Assembly: GCA_030739735.1 (NCBI GenBank)
Contig: JASLYQ010000008.1
Span: forward strand, 29,747 to 93,746
DNA from: Alphaproteobacteria bacterium
Lineage (GTDB): Bacteria; Pseudomonadota; Alphaproteobacteria; UBA7887
DNA: 64,000 bases
Direction: 5' to 3'
Shown: positions 52,998-58,651 of the stretch, piece by piece
How positions within the stretch are numbered: position 1 is the stretch's first letter
How the letters are laid out: every line of letters begins with the position of its first letter
Notes under the pieces: model-generated
Databases searched by the model: none
Seen by the model: the letters and a program-made list of their open reading frames with translations, nothing else
Told to the model about the DNA's origin: nothing
Made by a program: the position numbers and the translations under genes

Positions 52998-53382
52998 ACA
53001 CCTGCGTCGTCGCCAATTTCATCCCAGGTCGCCCGCATCCACTTGACGCAGGCAACACCTTGCTCGAAGAGCAGAGTATTGGCAGCCTTCGCCATAGTCG
53101 AGGTTTCGAATAAACTCGGTCGGGATCTGCCAGAGCCTGGCCCCAGGATCAGCGGCATGATAGCGCATCAGGGTGCAGATCATCATCTTCCACTGATCCA
53201 GTGCCGCTTTGTCCCAGGGCGCGTGATATTCACCCTCGCGCAACGCGGTCCGAAGGGGTACTGGATGCCACGGCCCGGACCACCGTCCTCGGCGCGCCCG
53301 CCGATGTTCTCTCGGTCGCTGGGAATGGCGCGGAGGAGGCGCAGGCAACTAGGTCATCTTGCAAGGCCTTGTGATCGGTCAT
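52994..53382 (-). pseudogene. Frameshifted gene of unknown function between NosR-like copy 2 and the enoyl-CoA hydratase
   Basis: ATG 53382 overlaps the upstream TGA, and TGA 52994-52996 overlaps the downstream ATG. Protein-like segments hop between frames; the 389 nt span is not a multiple of 3. Confidence 0.6.
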
Positions 53383-55487
53383 GACACCTCAAAGGCATCC
53401 TTTCGCTTGCGTTCGGCCACCAGCGGCGGGCAGCGGCGATCGTCATAATATTCGACCTGACAGTCGAGATATTGCAGGCATTCGCTCATATTGATTTTGC
53501 CGCTGTCGGGGATGGCGGCAACGGGACAGGAACTGCTGCAGATCTGGCAGGGCGAGCCACATTCGGGCCGGCGCTTGAGCCAGTTAAAAACGTGCCAGCG
53601 CCCGGCCAGGGCCAGCAGCGCACCGAGCGGACAGAAAAAGCGGCAGAAAGCGCGCTCATAGACCAAGCCCACAGCGAGCAATCCCACGGCATAGGCCACA
53701 TAGGGCCAGGTGCGTTGGAACTGGAGGCTGATAGCGGTTTTGAAAGGCTCCACCTCGGCCGCCGTATTGGCCGCTTCACGCGAAACCAGGGCGGTCGCCA
53801 ATACTACGAACAACACCCCATATTTGACTCGCCAAAGGCGCGCCTGCAAGTGCTCTGGCAAAGCGAGTTGCGGTACGTGCAGAAATCGTGCGATGCGGTT
53901 GGACAGCTCCTGCAGGGCACCGAAAGGGCAGAGCCAGCCGCAGAAGACACCGCGCCCCCAAAGCACCAGCGTGACTAATACATAGACGCTCAGCAACACT
54001 AGTGGTGCATCCATCAACATGCCGCGCCAGTCGAGTCCGCCGAAGGCAACCTGTAGCCAACTCAGCACCGTTAGAATAGTAAGCTGAGCCCCGGCGAACC
54101 AGCCCAGTCCCACCAAAGTCACGCCGAGAACGCCAAGCCGCAGCAGCTGGTGGTGGCGCCGCGAGTGTGTCAGGCGGTGCTGGAGAAGCATCACCCCGGT
54201 CACGACCAGCAGCAGCACGACAACACCGGCAAGAACCCGATCCTTATCGAGCCAGGCGCGTTGCCAGGGTGCCAGGGTGCTTTCACGCCAAAGCCCAAAA
54301 GCAACGTAAGTGGGTGTCTTAAAACCGGCATCCTCCAGCGCCGCGTCATCACCCAGCACATGCTGCACCGGAATTCGATAGGGCAGGGCGACGATCGCAT
54401 CGGGCATGGTCAATTCCAAGCTCCACGGCGCCAGTGGATCGAAGCCGCTGTCGGCAGTGATGTGGAACCGCCCAGCCTCATCGAAAGCCGGATGATCGGT
54501 CATTGCAAGGCGCCAGGCGCGATAGAATCTCTCGGGCCGCAAGACGAATGCCTTGCCTTCTTGGACCAGACGCAAACGCTCGAATAGTGGCACGAGCCAG
54601 GGGTTTTCCGGGATCCAGCCGATGGCGCCGACCGAGGCCACAAGGATCTGATTATCGTCCGGACCCGCGGCGTCGCGCATGGACCGGTAGGCGCGCTCGC
54701 CGAACAGGTTGCGGCCCACCGCAGGCGGCGTGGCCAGCGCAGCATAGAGCGTGGCAGAGCTGCCGCCGCCGGTGTCAACGTGGAGTTCTTGAACCGATGC
54801 GTTCCTGACCAGATCCGGCCAGGTCATGGGCTCAAAATCAAAACGATTGAGCGACAACCCGTCGCCGCCAACCTCGCGCAGACCCACAATCATACCCACA
54901 CGCAGCGCTGAATCGAGCATGGCATTGGCCATGGCAATACCGCTGATCGTTGCGCCGGAAACCGAGTCTATCGAACTCGGCACGAAGCGGCGGGCCGTAC
55001 GCACGTCGCTGCCGTGCAGCTCGCTGAGGAAGGCGCGAAAACCGGGCGGCTCGATGACGCCGCGTTGCAGCAGCGGCTCCTTTTGGGCCAGCACATGGTG
55101 ACCGCGGATGATACCGCCGGCACCGAGTGCCACAACAATATCGAAGGGATTGCCGGCGTAGCCGGCCGGCCGGACGGTCTCCAGGGTAGAAAACAGATAG
55201 CCTGCCACCTCACCCTTTGCCAGAACAGTCGCCACGGGCGGGTCGCCAGCCACCATGCCTATGCCGTCGGCAGCGGGGAAGAGTTCGGCCACCAGTGCCG
55301 AAGTCAGGCGCTCCTGCAAAGGTGCCTCACCCTCGGCAAGCGCCGTCGTCGATGCCAGCGCAAAGACGAGAAGCGCGCCTACTCGGCAGCGATGGCGAGA
55401 TCTTCGCGCTGCTTTCGCTGGGCGACCAACGGGGGGCAGCGATACTCGTCGTAATATTCGACCTGACAGTCCAGGCATTGCAGGCAC
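53379..55487 (-). CDS. NosR/NirI-like FMN-binding, Fe-S membrane protein, copy 2 (start uncertain)
   Basis: DSVSGATIS flavinylation-type motif, TM bundle, CGWLCP and CRFFCP, CGSPCQICSSSCP, CLQYLDC (one Cys replaced by Tyr relative to copy 1). Confidence 0.9.
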   Translation of the reverse strand: MPAMPGLSGRILRRVSLPPVGRPAKAARRSRHRCRVGALLVFALASTTALAEGEAPLQERLTSALVAELFPAADGIGMVAGDPPVATVLAKGEVAGYLFSTLETVRPAGYAGNPFDIVVALGAGGIIRGHHVLAQKEPLLQRGVIEPPGFRAFLSELHGSDVRTARRFVPSSIDSVSGATISGIAMANAMLDSALRVGMIVGLREVGGDGLSLNRFDFEPMTWPDLVRNASVQELHVDTGGGSSATLYAALATPPAVGRNLFGERAYRSMRDAAGPDDNQILVASVGAIGWIPENPWLVPLFERLRLVQEGKAFVLRPERFYRAWRLAMTDHPAFDEAGRFHITADSGFDPLAPWSLELTMPDAIVALPYRIPVQHVLGDDAALEDAGFKTPTYVAFGLWRESTLAPWQRAWLDKDRVLAGVVVLLLVVTGVMLLQHRLTHSRRHHQLLRLGVLGVTLVGLGWFAGAQLTILTVLSWLQVAFGGLDWRGMLMDAPLVLLSVYVLVTLVLWGRGVFCGWLCPFGALQELSNRIARFLHVPQLALPEHLQARLWRVKYGVLFVVLATALVSREAANTAAEVEPFKTAISLQFQRTWPYVAYAVGLLAVGLVYERAFCRFFCPLGALLALAGRWHVFNWLKRRPECGSPCQICSSSCPVAAIPDSGKINMSECLQYLDCQVEYYDDRRCPPLVAERKRKDAFEVS

Positions 55488-58207: not shown

Positions 58208-58288
58208 TCCGTTTTAAGGAAGGTAGTTGCCGGCTGTAACTCAACCGATACAGATTTGCGTCCCCACCCCACGAAAGGCACTATTGCG

Positions 58289-58651
58289 ATGACCCTAAAA
58301 TACGCTGCCCGCTTGCCGTTATTGGCTCTGATGGCCATCTTTGTTAGCGCCTCCGCGGCCCAAGCCGTGGACTGCAACGCGATTCACCAAGTCAATATCA
58401 CCTTTGAGTTCGTGCCCGGCGATATCTACCTCGCACCCGGCGACTGCGTCCGTTTTACCAATATCCATCATATCGAGCATTCCGCCATAGGCATGGAGCG
58501 CGAGTTCAATACCGGCGTTCTAATGCCCAACAACAGCGCAGTGCATCGCTTCAATGAGGAGATAGCGATCCCCTACGTCTGCGGCGTGCACCCGCTGATG
58601 GTCGGTGTCATCGTAGTCGAGGAGCCGGAGGACGATTCTGCGGTTCAGTAA
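58289..58651 (+). CDS. Exported type-1 copper protein (amicyanin/plastocyanin-like cupredoxin)
   Basis: GAAAGG RBS; signal peptide; F.P...L.PGD.V.F.N....H and C-terminal YVCGVHPLMVG (Cys-His-Met loop). Confidence 0.9.
   Translation: MTLKYAARLPLLALMAIFVSASAAQAVDCNAIHQVNITFEFVPGDIYLAPGDCVRFTNIHHIEHSAIGMEREFNTGVLMPNNSAVHRFNEEIAIPYVCGVHPLMVGVIVVEEPEDDSAVQ

What the first reader, a model, noticed from the sequence alone, without database searches (positions are those of the whole stretch)
53379..58651. Candidate new system: tandem NosR-like flavo/Fe-S membrane proteins + SCO + amicyanin-like cupredoxin, with no denitrification enzyme
Seen: two ~700-aa paralogues, each with an SGAT flavinylation-type motif, TM bundle, two CxxxCP motifs and ferredoxin-type Cys clusters. 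They share a 29-nt stretch with one mismatch (54241-54269 vs 56247-56275), consistent with tandem duplication, but their periplasmic domains have diverged. Across a 147-nt divergent spacer lie an SCO chaperone (CxxxC + His) and a secreted type-1 copper protein. No nosZ/D/F/Y/L, nirS, nirK, rdhA, PQQ dehydrogenase or apbE/nosX is in the window. Known: NosR/NirI/PceC-type proteins move electrons across the membrane to a periplasmic partner through ApbE-attached FMN and are normally encoded beside that enzyme; SCO proteins load copper; amicyanin-like proteins are periplasmic carriers. Inference: a stand-alone quinol/cytoplasm-to-periplasm electron conduit whose acceptor is the small cupredoxin itself, or which supplies Cu(I)/reductant for copper-protein maturation, possibly as a heterodimer with two flavin outlets.
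Basis: partly seen in the sequence, partly recalled or inferred. Interest (0 to 1): 0.85.

Follow-up and report, generated by a model that had tools for sequence, protein, structure and literature searches.

The report
NosR-like electron conduit with private cupredoxin
A widespread marine alphaproteobacterium encodes two NosR-type membrane iron-sulfur flavoproteins beside a small blue-copper protein and a copper chaperone, with no denitrification enzyme nearby. This is most likely a so-far undescribed variant of a known modular family of electron conduits to the periplasm.

Summary
Two NosR-family paralogues, A (55379-57472) and B (53379-55487), are 57% identical and lie divergent from an SCO chaperone and a secreted type-1 cupredoxin. 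The 64-kb window holds no nosZ, nirS, nirK, apbE or PQQ dehydrogenase.

- **Separate clade.** In a 92-protein tree, A and B fall in their own clade (100% bootstrap), apart from nosZ-linked NosR and nirS/ApbE-linked NirI. They share 35-42% identity with those proteins.
- **Not a split nos cluster.** One genome carries a member of this clade in addition to a complete nosRZDFYL cluster and a nirS-linked NirI-type gene.
- **Dedicated cupredoxin.** Its family is tiny: 19 proteins among 5.8 billion. Where context could be read, it lies beside this NosR-like clade, beside a Tat-signal amidohydrolase-fold gene with a zinc-ribbon gene, or beside both. SCO is frequent but not constant.
- **Functional genes.** All four show dN/dS of 0.09-0.17 and appear in marine metatranscriptomes.
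- **Old duplication.** The A/B split is lineage-specific, and B has lost one cluster cysteine.

Most likely the pair carries electrons from quinol or a cytoplasmic donor through Fe-S clusters and FMN to the private cupredoxin, which SCO loads with copper. The general idea of modular NapH-like flavinylated systems is already published, so this is a new variant and not a new kind. The direction of flow, flavinylation and the final partner are all inferred.

The parts
55379..57472 (-). NosR-like paralogue A, 697 aa. It has a signal peptide (cleavage after AFA), a periplasmic FMN-binding domain, a beta-rich middle domain, a NapH-like membrane part and a C-terminal Cys-rich cytoplasmic domain.
   Evidence: ORF. 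Pfam Fer4_5 68 bits and FMN_bind 18 bits; NCBIfam NosR 521 bits (cut-off 1000); NapH/MauN E=6e-14. AlphaFold2 model pLDDT 74.9, with RnfG as the best Foldseek match. dN/dS 0.16.
53379..55487 (-). NosR-like paralogue B, 699-702 aa. The start is ATG 55478 or GTG 55487, so its 5' end overlaps the 3' end of A by about 100 nt in another frame.
   Evidence: ORF. 57% identical to A. Only two in-frame start codons lie upstream of the signal peptide. dN/dS 0.12-0.14. NCBIfam NosR 483 bits.
57020..57031 (-). S148-G-A-T151 of A: the flavinylation-type motif within DGVSGATIS.
   Evidence: Alignment of 28 family members. Invariant in the clade.
54948..54959 (-). S177-G-A-T180 of B: the flavinylation-type motif within DSVSGATIS.
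55931..55948 (-). First CX3CP motif of A (C509-P514, CGWLCP).
55634..55651 (-). Second CX3CP motif of A (C608-P613, CRYLCP).
55433..55567 (-). C-terminal cytoplasmic Cys clusters of A: CX3CX2CX3CP and CX2CX2C...CP, eight Cys in all.
53925..53942 (-). First CX3CP motif of B (C516-P521).
53628..53645 (-). Second CX3CP motif of B (C615-P620).
53427..53561 (-). C-terminal Cys clusters of B, with seven Cys instead of eight.
53469..53471 (-). Tyr673 of B replaces the second Cys of the last CX2CX2C motif. The change is conserved in all three B orthologues and is absent from the 25 other family members shown.
54241..54269 (.). The 29-nt stretch in B that matches 56247-56275 in A with one mismatch. It encodes PWQRAWLDKD.
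   Evidence: Not beyond chance given the overall similarity.
56247..56275 (.). The copy of the same 29-nt stretch in A.
57473..57619 (.). Divergent 147-nt spacer between A and SCO. Blocks are conserved in L001 and L088: CACCCTACTTCAGC, GCGAAAGCCCCAAA, a TTGACT at 57554-57559, and a GAACG-A-CGTTC palindrome at 57573-57583.
   Evidence: The simple sigma-70 scan found no promoter-like site.
57620..58207 (+). SCO1/SenC-family copper chaperone, 195 aa from ATG 57620 (the longest ORF starts at 57542). Signal peptide ends ...PAAHA. CxxxC at 57791-57805 and His157 at 58088-58090.
   Evidence: Pfam SCO1-SenC 156.5 bits. Motifs. dN/dS 0.11-0.13.
58289..58651 (+). Secreted amicyanin-like type-1 cupredoxin, 120 aa (the longest ORF starts at 58256). 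Ligands: His64 (58478-58480), Cys98 (58580-58582), His101 (58589-58591), Met104 (58598-58600). A conserved Cys29/Cys53 pair is also present.
   Evidence: Family alignment. PDB profile search: the cupredoxin domain of 9cck at 1e-11 and amicyanin at 1e-6. AlphaFold2 pLDDT 71.5. Foldseek matches to pseudoazurin and amicyanin. dN/dS 0.09-0.11. Of the four genes, the one most consistently covered in metatranscriptomes.

Best explanation
The locus encodes a self-contained electron-transfer module directed at the periplasm. It belongs to the NosR/NirI (NapH-like, flavinylated) superfamily but has a new partner.

The two paralogous membrane proteins A and B would take electrons at the membrane or cytoplasmic face, from quinol as NapH does, or from a cytoplasmic donor through the C-terminal Fe-S domain. 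They would pass them through the CX3CP-bound and ferredoxin-type clusters to an FMN covalently attached to the Thr of the SGAT motif on the periplasmic domain. From there the electrons would reduce a dedicated, soluble amicyanin-like type-1 copper protein.

The co-encoded SCO would load Cu(I) into that cupredoxin, or keep it metallated. The cupredoxin would then carry single electrons to an acceptor that is not encoded in the locus. In sister lineages the candidate partner is a Tat-signal amidohydrolase-fold protein.

**Shown:** gene content, motifs, folds, clade separation, recurrent linkage, purifying selection and transcription.
**Inferred:** flavinylation, the direction of flow, that the cupredoxin is the direct partner, that SCO serves the cupredoxin, and any A/B heteromer.
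For: - **Architecture.** Motifs are intact in both paralogues. RnfG, a covalently flavinylated subunit, is the best structural match of the N-terminal domain. NapH homology is clear.
- **Clade.** The window clade has 100% bootstrap support, apart from nosZ-linked NosR and nirS/ApbE-linked NirI.
- **Coexistence with true NosR.** The 4.85-Mb contig with L004 also carries a full nosRZDFYL cluster (L066) and a nirS-linked NirI-type gene (L059).
- **Cupredoxin linkage.** The family has 19 members in 5.8 billion proteins. Six of them lie on contigs whose recorded length equals that of a contig carrying a window-clade NosR-like protein. In co-directional operons the cupredoxin gene ends 8-24 nt before the NosR-like gene. 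A divergent layout like the window's occurs in a 51%-identity lineage.
- **Copper site.** The type-1 ligand set is conserved and the fold is that of a cupredoxin.
- **Function in situ.** dN/dS is 0.09-0.17 for all four genes. The region is near-identical in at least 20 marine or seawater metagenome runs. All four genes are represented in metatranscriptome contigs.
- **Published framework.** NosR carries covalent FMN and [4Fe-4S] clusters and is the proposed electron donor to NosZ (PMC7660919). NapH-like flavinylated proteins are used modularly with different periplasmic enzymes (PMC8238504).
Against: - No ApbE gene lies in the window or in any locus of this clade, so flavinylation rests on the motif alone.
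- Pfam FMN_bind scores 18 bits, below its cut-off of 22.
- No acceptor for the cupredoxin is known.
- Several members of the clade stand alone or sit next to PQQ dehydrogenases without any cupredoxin (L002, L009, L037, L007, L013). The conduit therefore does not need this carrier.
- Distant cupredoxin homologues sit beside the Tat-signal amidohydrolase/zinc-ribbon pair with no NosR-like gene found on the DNA held (L092, L152, L168).
- SCO is missing from some loci (L004, L174).
- No cupredoxin is known to me to need an SCO protein for copper loading (own knowledge).
- The direction of electron flow is argued only from typical midpoint potentials.
Confidence: 0.5

Rival explanations
1. Copper-handling or maturation module. 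The NosR-like proteins export reducing power through FMN. This would reduce Cu(II) to Cu(I), or keep the CxxxC thiols of SCO reduced, as TlpA or DsbD-type systems do. The cupredoxin would be SCO's client or a periplasmic copper buffer, not an electron carrier for respiration.
For: - SCO sits next to the cupredoxin in most layouts.
- NosR has been linked to copper-responsive regulation in Paracoccus (PMC7660919).
- Flavinylated extracytosolic systems tied to metal reduction and DsbD-like modules are described (PMC8238504).
- The middle periplasmic domain gave a weak Foldseek match to the copper-binding protein CrdA (TM 0.40-0.42).
Against: - The tightest and most constant linkage is cupredoxin with NosR-like, not SCO with NosR-like. 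SCO is absent near L004 and L174 and 5 kb away in L091.
- The cupredoxin keeps a canonical electron-transfer type-1 site.
- No Cys, His or Met is invariant in the periplasmic part of the NosR-like clade.
- The CrdA match is no better than matches to generic Ig-like folds.
Confidence: 0.17
2. Split cluster. A and B are accessory electron donors for a copper enzyme encoded elsewhere in the same genome, such as NosZ, NirK, a multicopper oxidase, or the Tat-signal amidohydrolase-fold protein seen in sister lineages. The cupredoxin acts as the shuttle, as pseudoazurin does.
For: - The window covers only 64 kb of the genome.
- In sister lineages the same genes lie next to the Tat-signal amidohydrolase/zinc-ribbon pair.
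- The best PDB match of the cupredoxin is the cupredoxin domain tethered to a NirK-like multicopper enzyme (9cck).
Against: - The clade is distinct from NosR and NirI.
- It coexists with a dedicated NosR and a NirI-type gene on the contig that carries L004, L059 and L066.
- The Tat-signal amidohydrolase is absent from the window and from the close relatives' loci.
- That amidohydrolase occurs in most metagenome loci without a NosR-like gene or a cupredoxin.
Confidence: 0.2
3. Reverse direction. The cupredoxin collects electrons from a periplasmic oxidising enzyme, as amicyanin does from methylamine dehydrogenase. The NosR-like pair then feeds them into the membrane or the cytoplasm.
For: - NosR-family members placed nearest the window clade in the tree, though with weak support (31%), are fused to cytochrome c. 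They lie next to a sulfite-oxidase-type molybdoenzyme and a XoxF-like PQQ dehydrogenase (L007, L013).
- Meheust et al. propose the oxidase-to-membrane direction for NapH-like proteins linked to alcohol dehydrogenase.
Against: - Typical type-1 copper potentials lie well above those of quinones and flavins (own knowledge), so transfer from cupredoxin to FMN and on to quinone would be uphill.
- No dehydrogenase is encoded in the locus.
Confidence: 0.08
4. The adjacency is fortuitous, and the genes have unrelated functions.
For: The close relatives that share the full four-gene layout also share flanking synteny (aspS, amidase), so they are not independent observations.
Against: The linkage is kept through rearrangements: divergent, co-directional, with insertions, and with or without SCO. 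This holds in lineages whose NosR-like proteins are only 51-54% identical. The cupredoxin family is almost never found elsewhere.
Confidence: 0.05

Closest known systems
NosR of the nos cluster (Pseudomonas stutzeri, Paracoccus denitrificans)
   Same: It shares the domain order: a periplasmic FMN-binding domain with the S/T-G-A-T/S site, a NapH-like membrane part with two CX3CP motifs, and a C-terminal domain with two 4-Cys motifs. The full-length match to NCBIfam NF046105 has E=1e-144 to 1e-156. Published properties of NosR are summarised in PMC7660919.
   Different: - Identity is only 33-40%, and scores are half the equivalog cut-off.
- It forms a separate clade.
- It is never next to nosZDFYL, whereas 41 nosZ-linked loci were recovered in the same scan.
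- It lacks a short insertion before the FMN motif.
- It coexists with a true NosR on one 4.85-Mb contig.
NirI/NirX of the nirS cluster (Paracoccus type)
   Same: It has the same architecture and is also a paralogue dedicated to a partner other than NosZ.
   Different: NirI-type genes here sit beside nirS, the heme d1 genes and an ApbE (NirX) gene. The window clade has none of these and is 37-42% identical to them.
NapH-like flavinylated extracytosolic electron-transfer systems (Meheust et al., eLife 2021, PMC8238504)
   Same: The concept is the same: a PF12801 membrane Fe-S protein with an extracytosolic FMN-binding domain, used modularly with different periplasmic redox partners. Most of these systems have unknown function.
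   Different: - That survey names NosZ, PceA, NirS and ExaA as partners. The words copper and cupredoxin do not occur in its main text.
- Its operational definition is built on flavinylation-associated gene clusters, and no ApbE gene lies in this locus.
- A tandem pair plus SCO plus a private cupredoxin is not described there.
NapGH and MauMN (NapH/MauN family, TIGR02163)
   Same: The membrane CX3CP module is homologous (E=1e-13 to 5e-16). In the mau cluster a NapH-type protein is co-encoded with amicyanin (own knowledge; not found in the searchable library).
   Different: NapH and MauN lack the periplasmic FMN domain and work with a separate ferredoxin (NapG or MauM). No methylamine dehydrogenase or nap genes were found in the window.
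Amicyanin, pseudoazurin and plastocyanin (type-1 cupredoxins)
   Same: It shares the fold and the His/Cys/His/Met ligand set, with the short C-x2-H-x2-M loop of amicyanin.
   Different: - The amicyanin equivalog scores 21 bits against a cut-off of 110.
- It has an extra conserved Cys pair and an EREFNTG-LMP motif.
- Its best PDB relative is the cupredoxin domain fused to a Nitrosopumilus multicopper enzyme.
SCO1/SenC copper chaperones
   Same: Strong Pfam match, with the CxxxC motif and His.
   Different: Known clients are CuA and CuB centres of oxidases and a few other cuproenzymes (own knowledge). Here the gene context points to a type-1 cupredoxin as client, which would be unusual.

Membership tests
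NosR (NCBIfam NF046105 equivalog) | Whole-protein score at or above the curated cut-off of 1000 bits | tested here: not met
   521 bits (A) and 483 bits (B).
NosR (nos cluster protein) | Encoded with nosZ and nosDFYL | tested here: not met
   No NosZ/D/F/Y/L in the 64-kb window or in any locus of its clade. 41 other loci from the same scan have nosZ beside the NosR gene. The rest of the genome could not be searched.
NosR (nos cluster protein) | Groups with nosZ-linked NosR in a family tree | tested here: not met
   Neighbour-joining tree of 92 proteins over 643 columns. The window clade has 100% bootstrap support and lies outside the nosZ-linked and nirS-linked groups.
NosR/NirI superfamily | Architecture: signal peptide, periplasmic FMN-binding domain, membrane part with two CX3CP motifs, and C-terminal 2 x 4 Cys | tested here: met
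   B lacks one of the eight C-terminal Cys (Tyr673). PF27538 (NosR) is on record for every listed homologue but one.
NosR/NirI superfamily | FMN covalently bound to the Thr of the SGAT motif by an ApbE-type flavin transferase | not testable with these tools
   The motif is present and invariant. No ApbE lies in the window or in the clade's loci. The genome as a whole could not be searched.
NirI | Encoded beside nirS and nirX (ApbE) | tested here: not met
   NirS and ApbE are absent from the window and from the clade's loci. They are present beside the NirI-type genes recovered.
NapH-like flavinylated system (Meheust et al. 2021) | A PF12801 membrane protein with an extracytosolic FMN-binding domain | tested here: met
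   PF12801 scores 64-68 bits. FMN_bind scores 18 bits (below the cut-off of 22), but RnfG is the best structural match and the rnfG model hits at E=1e-3.
Type-1 (blue) cupredoxin | Cupredoxin fold with His, Cys, His and Met ligands | tested here: met
   C98, H101 and M104 are invariant in 17 sequences. H64 is kept in all but P0090, which has Pro. Profile matches to amicyanin and plastocyanin. Foldseek TM 0.5-0.6 to amicyanin and pseudoazurin on a moderate-quality model.
Type-1 (blue) cupredoxin | Binds copper and shows the blue charge-transfer band | not testable with these tools
   Needs the purified protein.
Amicyanin proper (TIGR02657; mau cluster) | Equivalog score of at least 110 bits and co-encoded methylamine dehydrogenase | tested here: not met
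   21.2 bits. No methylamine dehydrogenase domains among the window ORFs scanned.
SCO1/SenC | Family HMM above the cut-off, plus a CxxxC motif and a conserved His | tested here: met
   156.5 bits against 22.8. H57-C58-P-D-V-C62-P and His157.

The most novel reading that the evidence does not exclude
The A/B pair is a heteromeric quinol:cupredoxin oxidoreductase independent of the bc1 complex. This would be a previously unrecognised respiratory branch in abundant pelagic Alphaproteobacteria. It would feed a private blue-copper carrier matured by its own SCO. B would have been remodelled (Cys673 to Tyr) for a distinct role in the complex. The same cupredoxin would link this branch to a widespread, uncharacterised Tat-signal amidohydrolase-fold metalloprotein that would then have to be a redox enzyme.
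Probability: 0.2. Interest if true: 0.75.

Novelty: new variant of a known kind. Interest (0 to 1): 0.55.

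Why it matters
How NosR-family proteins move electrons, and to whom, is still unsettled even for NosR itself (PMC7660919). No solved structure with a sequence related to paralogue A is in the PDB.

A version whose presumed partner is a 10-kDa soluble cupredoxin would be an unusually tractable model. Flavinylation, midpoint potentials and FMN-to-copper electron transfer could all be measured with purified parts.

If the module proves to be a quinol-to-cupredoxin route, it would add a branch to the respiratory chains of a marine alphaproteobacterium found in many ocean metagenomes. It would also extend the client range of SCO chaperones to type-1 copper proteins.

The link to a very conserved Tat-signal amidohydrolase-fold protein gives a first functional handle on that unstudied family.

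Tried and rejected
1. **GTGA coupling.** I supposed that B starts at a GTG overlapping A's stop codon. The codon is GTA. The only in-frame starts are ATG 55478 and GTG 55487, so B overlaps A by about 100 nt.
2. **The neighbouring Amidohydro_2.** I asked whether the window's Amidohydro_2 gene (58645-59865) is the counterpart of the amidohydrolase beside the NosR-like genes of sister lineages. It is not. They share only 35% identity over 65 aa. The window's copy has no Tat motif and looks cytoplasmic. No copy of the Tat-signal type occurs in the window or in the close relatives' loci.
3. **The 29-nt stretch.** As a sign of recent duplication or gene conversion it is not beyond chance.
4. **PDB sequence search.** Paralogue A gave no hit. 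The Tat-signal amidohydrolase gave only an uncharacterised protein.
5. **RNA and promoter scans.** An Rfam scan of 52000-60000 found nothing. The sigma-70 scan found no promoter-like site.
6. **Literature searches.** 'NosR-like', 'NosR + cupredoxin + Sco', 'NosR + cryo-EM' and 'mauN + mauM + amicyanin' turned up no description of this gene set.
7. **Exhaustive profile search.** The search with the cupredoxin alignment was dominated by multi-domain cupredoxin repeat proteins. It added little beyond showing only a handful of single-domain close relatives.
8. **Neighbours of the Tat-signal amidohydrolase.** Across 80 metagenome loci only the zinc-ribbon gene recurs widely.
9. **Lone clade members.** L002, L009, L010 and L037 showed no shared neighbour.

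Full report
**1. What is in the window**

The region holds four genes.
- Two long ORFs lie on the minus strand: B (53379-55487, 702 aa at most) and A (55379-57472, 697 aa).
- Across a 147-nt spacer, on the plus strand, lie an SCO1/SenC gene (ATG 57620 to 58207) and a 120-aa secreted protein (ATG 58289 to 58651).

A and B are 57% identical over 676 residues. Both match Pfam Fer4_5 (64 and 68 bits), the NCBIfam NosR model over their full length (E=1e-144 and 3e-156), and NapH/MauN. The NosR scores, 483 and 521 bits, are about half the curated cut-off of 1000.

- a signal peptide;
- the motif D-x-x-S-G-A-T-I-S;
- hydrophobic segments after residue ~405;
- two CX3CP motifs;
- a C-terminal CX3CX2CX3CP plus CX2CX2C...CP region.

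An AlphaFold2 model of A (pLDDT 74.9) has the flavinylated subunit RnfG as its best PDB match. No solved structure is related to A by sequence.

SCO scores 156.5 bits and has HCPDVCP and a later His.

The small protein has no Pfam hit, but a family profile matches cupredoxins. It hits the cupredoxin domain of a Nitrosopumilus multicopper enzyme (9cck) at 1e-11 and amicyanins at 1e-6. Its model matches pseudoazurin and amicyanin at TM 0.5-0.6. It keeps His64, Cys98, His101 and Met104 in an amicyanin-like C-x2-H-x2-M loop.

**2. What is not in the window**

A Pfam scan of about 40 gene-like ORFs shows housekeeping and assimilatory genes. These include carB, greA, argG, ispG, prfA, the cysI/H/NC sulfate genes, msrP, aminotransferases and acyl-CoA enzymes.

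No nosZ, nirS, nirK, reductive dehalogenase, PQQ dehydrogenase or ApbE domain appeared. phmmer with NosZ/D/F/Y/L, NirS, ApbE and PQQ-dehydrogenase sequences taken from related loci also found none of these genes among window ORFs of 70 aa or more. The rest of the genome could not be searched.

**3. Corrections to details**

- **The 29-nt stretch.** It exists and encodes PWQRAWLDKD, a motif conserved across the clade. A and B are 63% identical at the nucleotide level and 44.5% at third codon positions. In 111 of 2000 shuffles of the per-codon match patterns, a 29-nt window with at least 28 matches appears. The stretch therefore says nothing about a recent duplication.
- **Periplasmic divergence.** The periplasmic part is only moderately more diverged: 48-52% identity against 65% for the membrane and C-terminal parts.
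- **B's start.** The only in-frame start codons upstream of B's signal peptide are ATG 55478 and GTG 55487. B's 5' end therefore overlaps A's 3' end by about 100 nt in another frame, and the reading frame stays open in the relatives too.
- **B's missing Cys.** B and both of its orthologues have Tyr in place of the second Cys of the last CX2CX2C motif. The 25 other family members shown, including NosR and NirI types, keep the Cys.

**4. Relatives and the family tree**

A word-indexed search found 79 homologues. A scan of one genome per species returned 80 loci. I called ORFs in all loci and searched them with NosZ/D/F/Y/L taken from a Stutzerimonas locus. I added NirS, ApbE and PQQ-dehydrogenase queries whose identity I first checked with Pfam.

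Three labelled groups emerge.
- **NosR.** Genes followed by nosZDFYL, in 41 loci.
- **NirI type.** Genes flanked by nirS, heme d1 genes and ApbE.
- **The window's group.** It is never next to any of these.

A neighbour-joining tree was built from 92 proteins, 643 columns and 100 bootstraps. It gives the following.
- The window clade has 100% support.
- A and B orthologues are sisters at 92%, so the duplication is specific to this lineage and predates the split of the window, L001 and L088.
- Identity of A is 51-54% to other clade members. It is 37-42% to NirI types and 35-40% to NosR.

One 4.85-Mb contig carries a window-clade gene (L004), a complete nosRZDFYL cluster (L066) and a nirS-linked NirI-type gene (L059). 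The clade is thus a further paralogue, not a NosR separated from its cluster.

**5. Recurrence of the gene set**

The cupredoxin family is very small: 19 proteins in 5.8 billion. Six of them lie on contigs whose recorded length equals that of a contig carrying a window-clade NosR-like protein. The layouts seen are as follows.
- **Same four-gene layout.** Tandem pair, divergent from SCO and cupredoxin: window, L001, L008 and L088. These share flanking synteny and are not independent.
- **Divergent layout in another lineage.** NosR-like (51% identity) divergent from SCO and cupredoxin, in L093.
- **Co-directional operon.** SCO, cupredoxin, then a single NosR-like gene 8-24 nt after the cupredoxin gene. 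An Amidohydro_2 gene of about 440 aa and a zinc-ribbon gene follow. Seen in L005 and L006 (the same protein, P0023, on two contigs), L089 and L090.
- **SCO displaced.** The same operon with five genes inserted between SCO and cupredoxin: L091 plus L011 from one assembly. L095 likewise has SCO about 3 kb upstream of the cupredoxin.
- **No SCO nearby.** Cupredoxin, zinc ribbon, amidohydrolase and NosR-like gene, in L004.
- **Degraded copy.** A single NosR-like gene 66% identical to A, beside a cupredoxin copy that has lost His64 and Cys29, with no SCO, in L174.

Other members of the clade stand alone (L002, L009, L037). Related NosR-family proteins outside the clade are fused to cytochrome c beside a sulfite-oxidase-type molybdoenzyme and a XoxF-like PQQ dehydrogenase (L007, L013).

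The constant pairing is cupredoxin with NosR-like. SCO is frequent but dispensable in the neighbourhood.

**6. A possible missing partner**

The 440-aa Amidohydro_2 protein of the sister lineages has a conserved N-terminal extension and a twin-arginine motif (PRREFFK or SRRHFL). It also has the HxH...H...H...D metal ligands and four invariant Cys. It is not the orthologue of the window's own Amidohydro_2 gene, and it is absent from the window and from close relatives' loci.

A metagenome scan found 397 relatives. The best 80 are at least 65% identical over the full length, and 71 of them have the FmdB-like zinc-ribbon gene directly downstream. Only two of the 80 have a NosR-like gene beside it. 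A homologue of the cupredoxin follows the zinc-ribbon gene in L092, L152 and L168. No other neighbour recurs widely.

The cupredoxin family is therefore linked to two things: the NosR-like clade and this amidohydrolase/zinc-ribbon pair. This hints that the exported protein may be the enzyme served in some lineages. Why an amidohydrolase-fold protein would need an electron carrier remains unexplained.

**7. Are the genes functional?**

Between the window and its orthologues in L001 and L088, dN/dS is as follows.

| Gene | dN/dS |
|---|---|
| A | 0.16-0.17 |
| B | 0.12-0.14 |
| SCO | 0.11-0.13 |
| Cupredoxin | 0.09-0.11 |

The 5.3-kb region is present nearly word for word in at least 20 marine or seawater metagenome runs from about a dozen studies. 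Contigs from four metatranscriptome runs cover parts of all four genes. The cupredoxin gene is covered in three of the four runs. These are assembled contigs, so DNA carry-over cannot be excluded.

The divergent spacer keeps several conserved blocks, including a TTGACT and a GAACG-A-CGTTC palindrome. No sigma-70-like site or Rfam family was found.

**8. Mechanism**

Published knowledge gives the frame.
- NosR carries covalent FMN on its periplasmic domain and [4Fe-4S] clusters on the cytoplasmic side. It is flavinylated by ApbE or NosX and is proposed to donate electrons to NosZ (PMC7660919).
- NapH-like flavinylated proteins are used modularly with NosZ, PceA, NirS or alcohol dehydrogenase, and most have unknown partners (PMC8238504).

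The best reading is that A and B form such a conduit and that the private cupredoxin is its periplasmic partner, with SCO as that protein's copper chaperone. Electrons most likely flow outward, from quinol or a cytoplasmic donor through Fe-S and FMN to copper. This direction rests on my own knowledge that type-1 copper potentials normally lie above those of quinones and flavins. It was not measured.

B's conserved loss of one cluster ligand, and the existence of other stand-alone tandem NosR-like pairs (L018, L087), fit a heteromer with divided roles. That remains conjecture.

The rivals, with their weights, are given in the Rival explanations section. They are a copper-reduction or SCO-reduction role, service to a copper enzyme encoded elsewhere, and reverse flow from a periplasmic oxidase.

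**9. Novelty and verdict**

The finding is a real, conserved and transcribed gene set. It is not NosR or NirI in the strict sense. I found no description of a NosR-family protein paired with a dedicated cupredoxin and SCO.

The general principle is already published, and function here is inferred from context only. I therefore rate it a new variant of a known kind, with interest 0.55. Its main appeal is as a simple, testable model for how NosR-family proteins deliver electrons, and as a lead into the conserved Tat-signal amidohydrolase family.

Noticed in passing
L005:12408-14094; L004:8017-9705; L092:761-2789; L094-L173: A Tat-signal Amidohydro_2 protein of about 440 aa, followed by an FmdB-like zinc-ribbon gene, forms a widespread and highly conserved two-gene unit. 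It has a twin-arginine motif after a conserved 50-aa extension, HxH...H...H...D ligands and four invariant Cys. The best 80 metagenome loci are at least 65% identical, and 71 of them have the zinc-ribbon gene directly downstream. It lies beside the window-clade NosR-like gene and cupredoxin in marine lineages. A cupredoxin homologue alone follows it in L092, L152 and L168. Its function is unknown, and its only PDB relative is an uncharacterised protein.
   Followed up: partly
window 53469-53471: Paralogue B has Tyr where every other NosR-family member shown has the second Cys of the last CX2CX2C...CP motif. The change is conserved in the B orthologues of L001 and L088. It suggests a lost or altered Fe-S cluster and divided roles for A and B.
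   Followed up: partly
window 55379-55487: The 5' end of B overlaps the 3' end of A by about 100 nt in a different frame. The only possible starts are ATG 55478 and GTG 55487. B's frame is also open across the end of A in L001 and L088, where gene callers placed the start too far downstream and lost the signal peptide.
   Followed up: partly
window 57473-57619: The divergent spacer has blocks conserved in L001 and L088, including a TTGACT (57554-57559) and a perfect GAACG-A-CGTTC palindrome (57573-57583). This is a possible operator, but no regulator was identified.
   Followed up: no
L087:9848-14279; L018:5004-9585: Other tandem pairs of NosR-like genes exist. Their members belong to two different deep clades, pair up consistently, and share no neighbour. 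L087 lies on a 3,261,019-bp record, the same length as the contig carrying the window-clade protein P0036. L018 comes from the same assembly as L011 and L091.
   Followed up: partly
L007:8776-16885; L013: A NosR-like protein fused to N-terminal cytochrome c domains (1174 aa) lies between a sulfite-oxidase-type molybdoenzyme gene and a xoxF-like PQQ dehydrogenase cluster with a solute-binding protein and a cytochrome c.
   Followed up: no
L004, L059, L066 (one 4,853,305-bp contig): One chromosome-sized contig carries three NosR-family paralogues: a window-clade gene with cupredoxin and Tat-signal amidohydrolase, a nirS-linked NirI type, and a true nosR beside nosZDFYL.
   Followed up: yes
L174:1557-1994: In a lineage whose NosR-like protein is 66% identical to A, the adjacent cupredoxin copy has Pro in place of the His64 ligand and Gly in place of Cys29. 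It has no clear signal peptide, and no SCO lies nearby. It may be a decaying copy or an assembly error.
   Followed up: no
window 8434-11539: An msrP gene for the periplasmic methionine-sulfoxide reductase catalytic subunit (370 bits, cut-off 207) lies next to a 685-aa molybdopterin oxidoreductase of unclear type. The two longest ORFs overlap by 50 nt. No link to the finding is apparent.
   Followed up: no
window 58645-61757: A cytoplasmic Amidohydro_2 gene ends 7 nt inside the 3' end of the cupredoxin gene, in convergent orientation. An amidase gene and a 188-aa gene with no family match follow it. This trio is syntenic in L001 and L088. It is very conserved (92% identity, dN/dS 0.05) and unrelated to the Tat-signal amidohydrolase of sister lineages.
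   Followed up: partly
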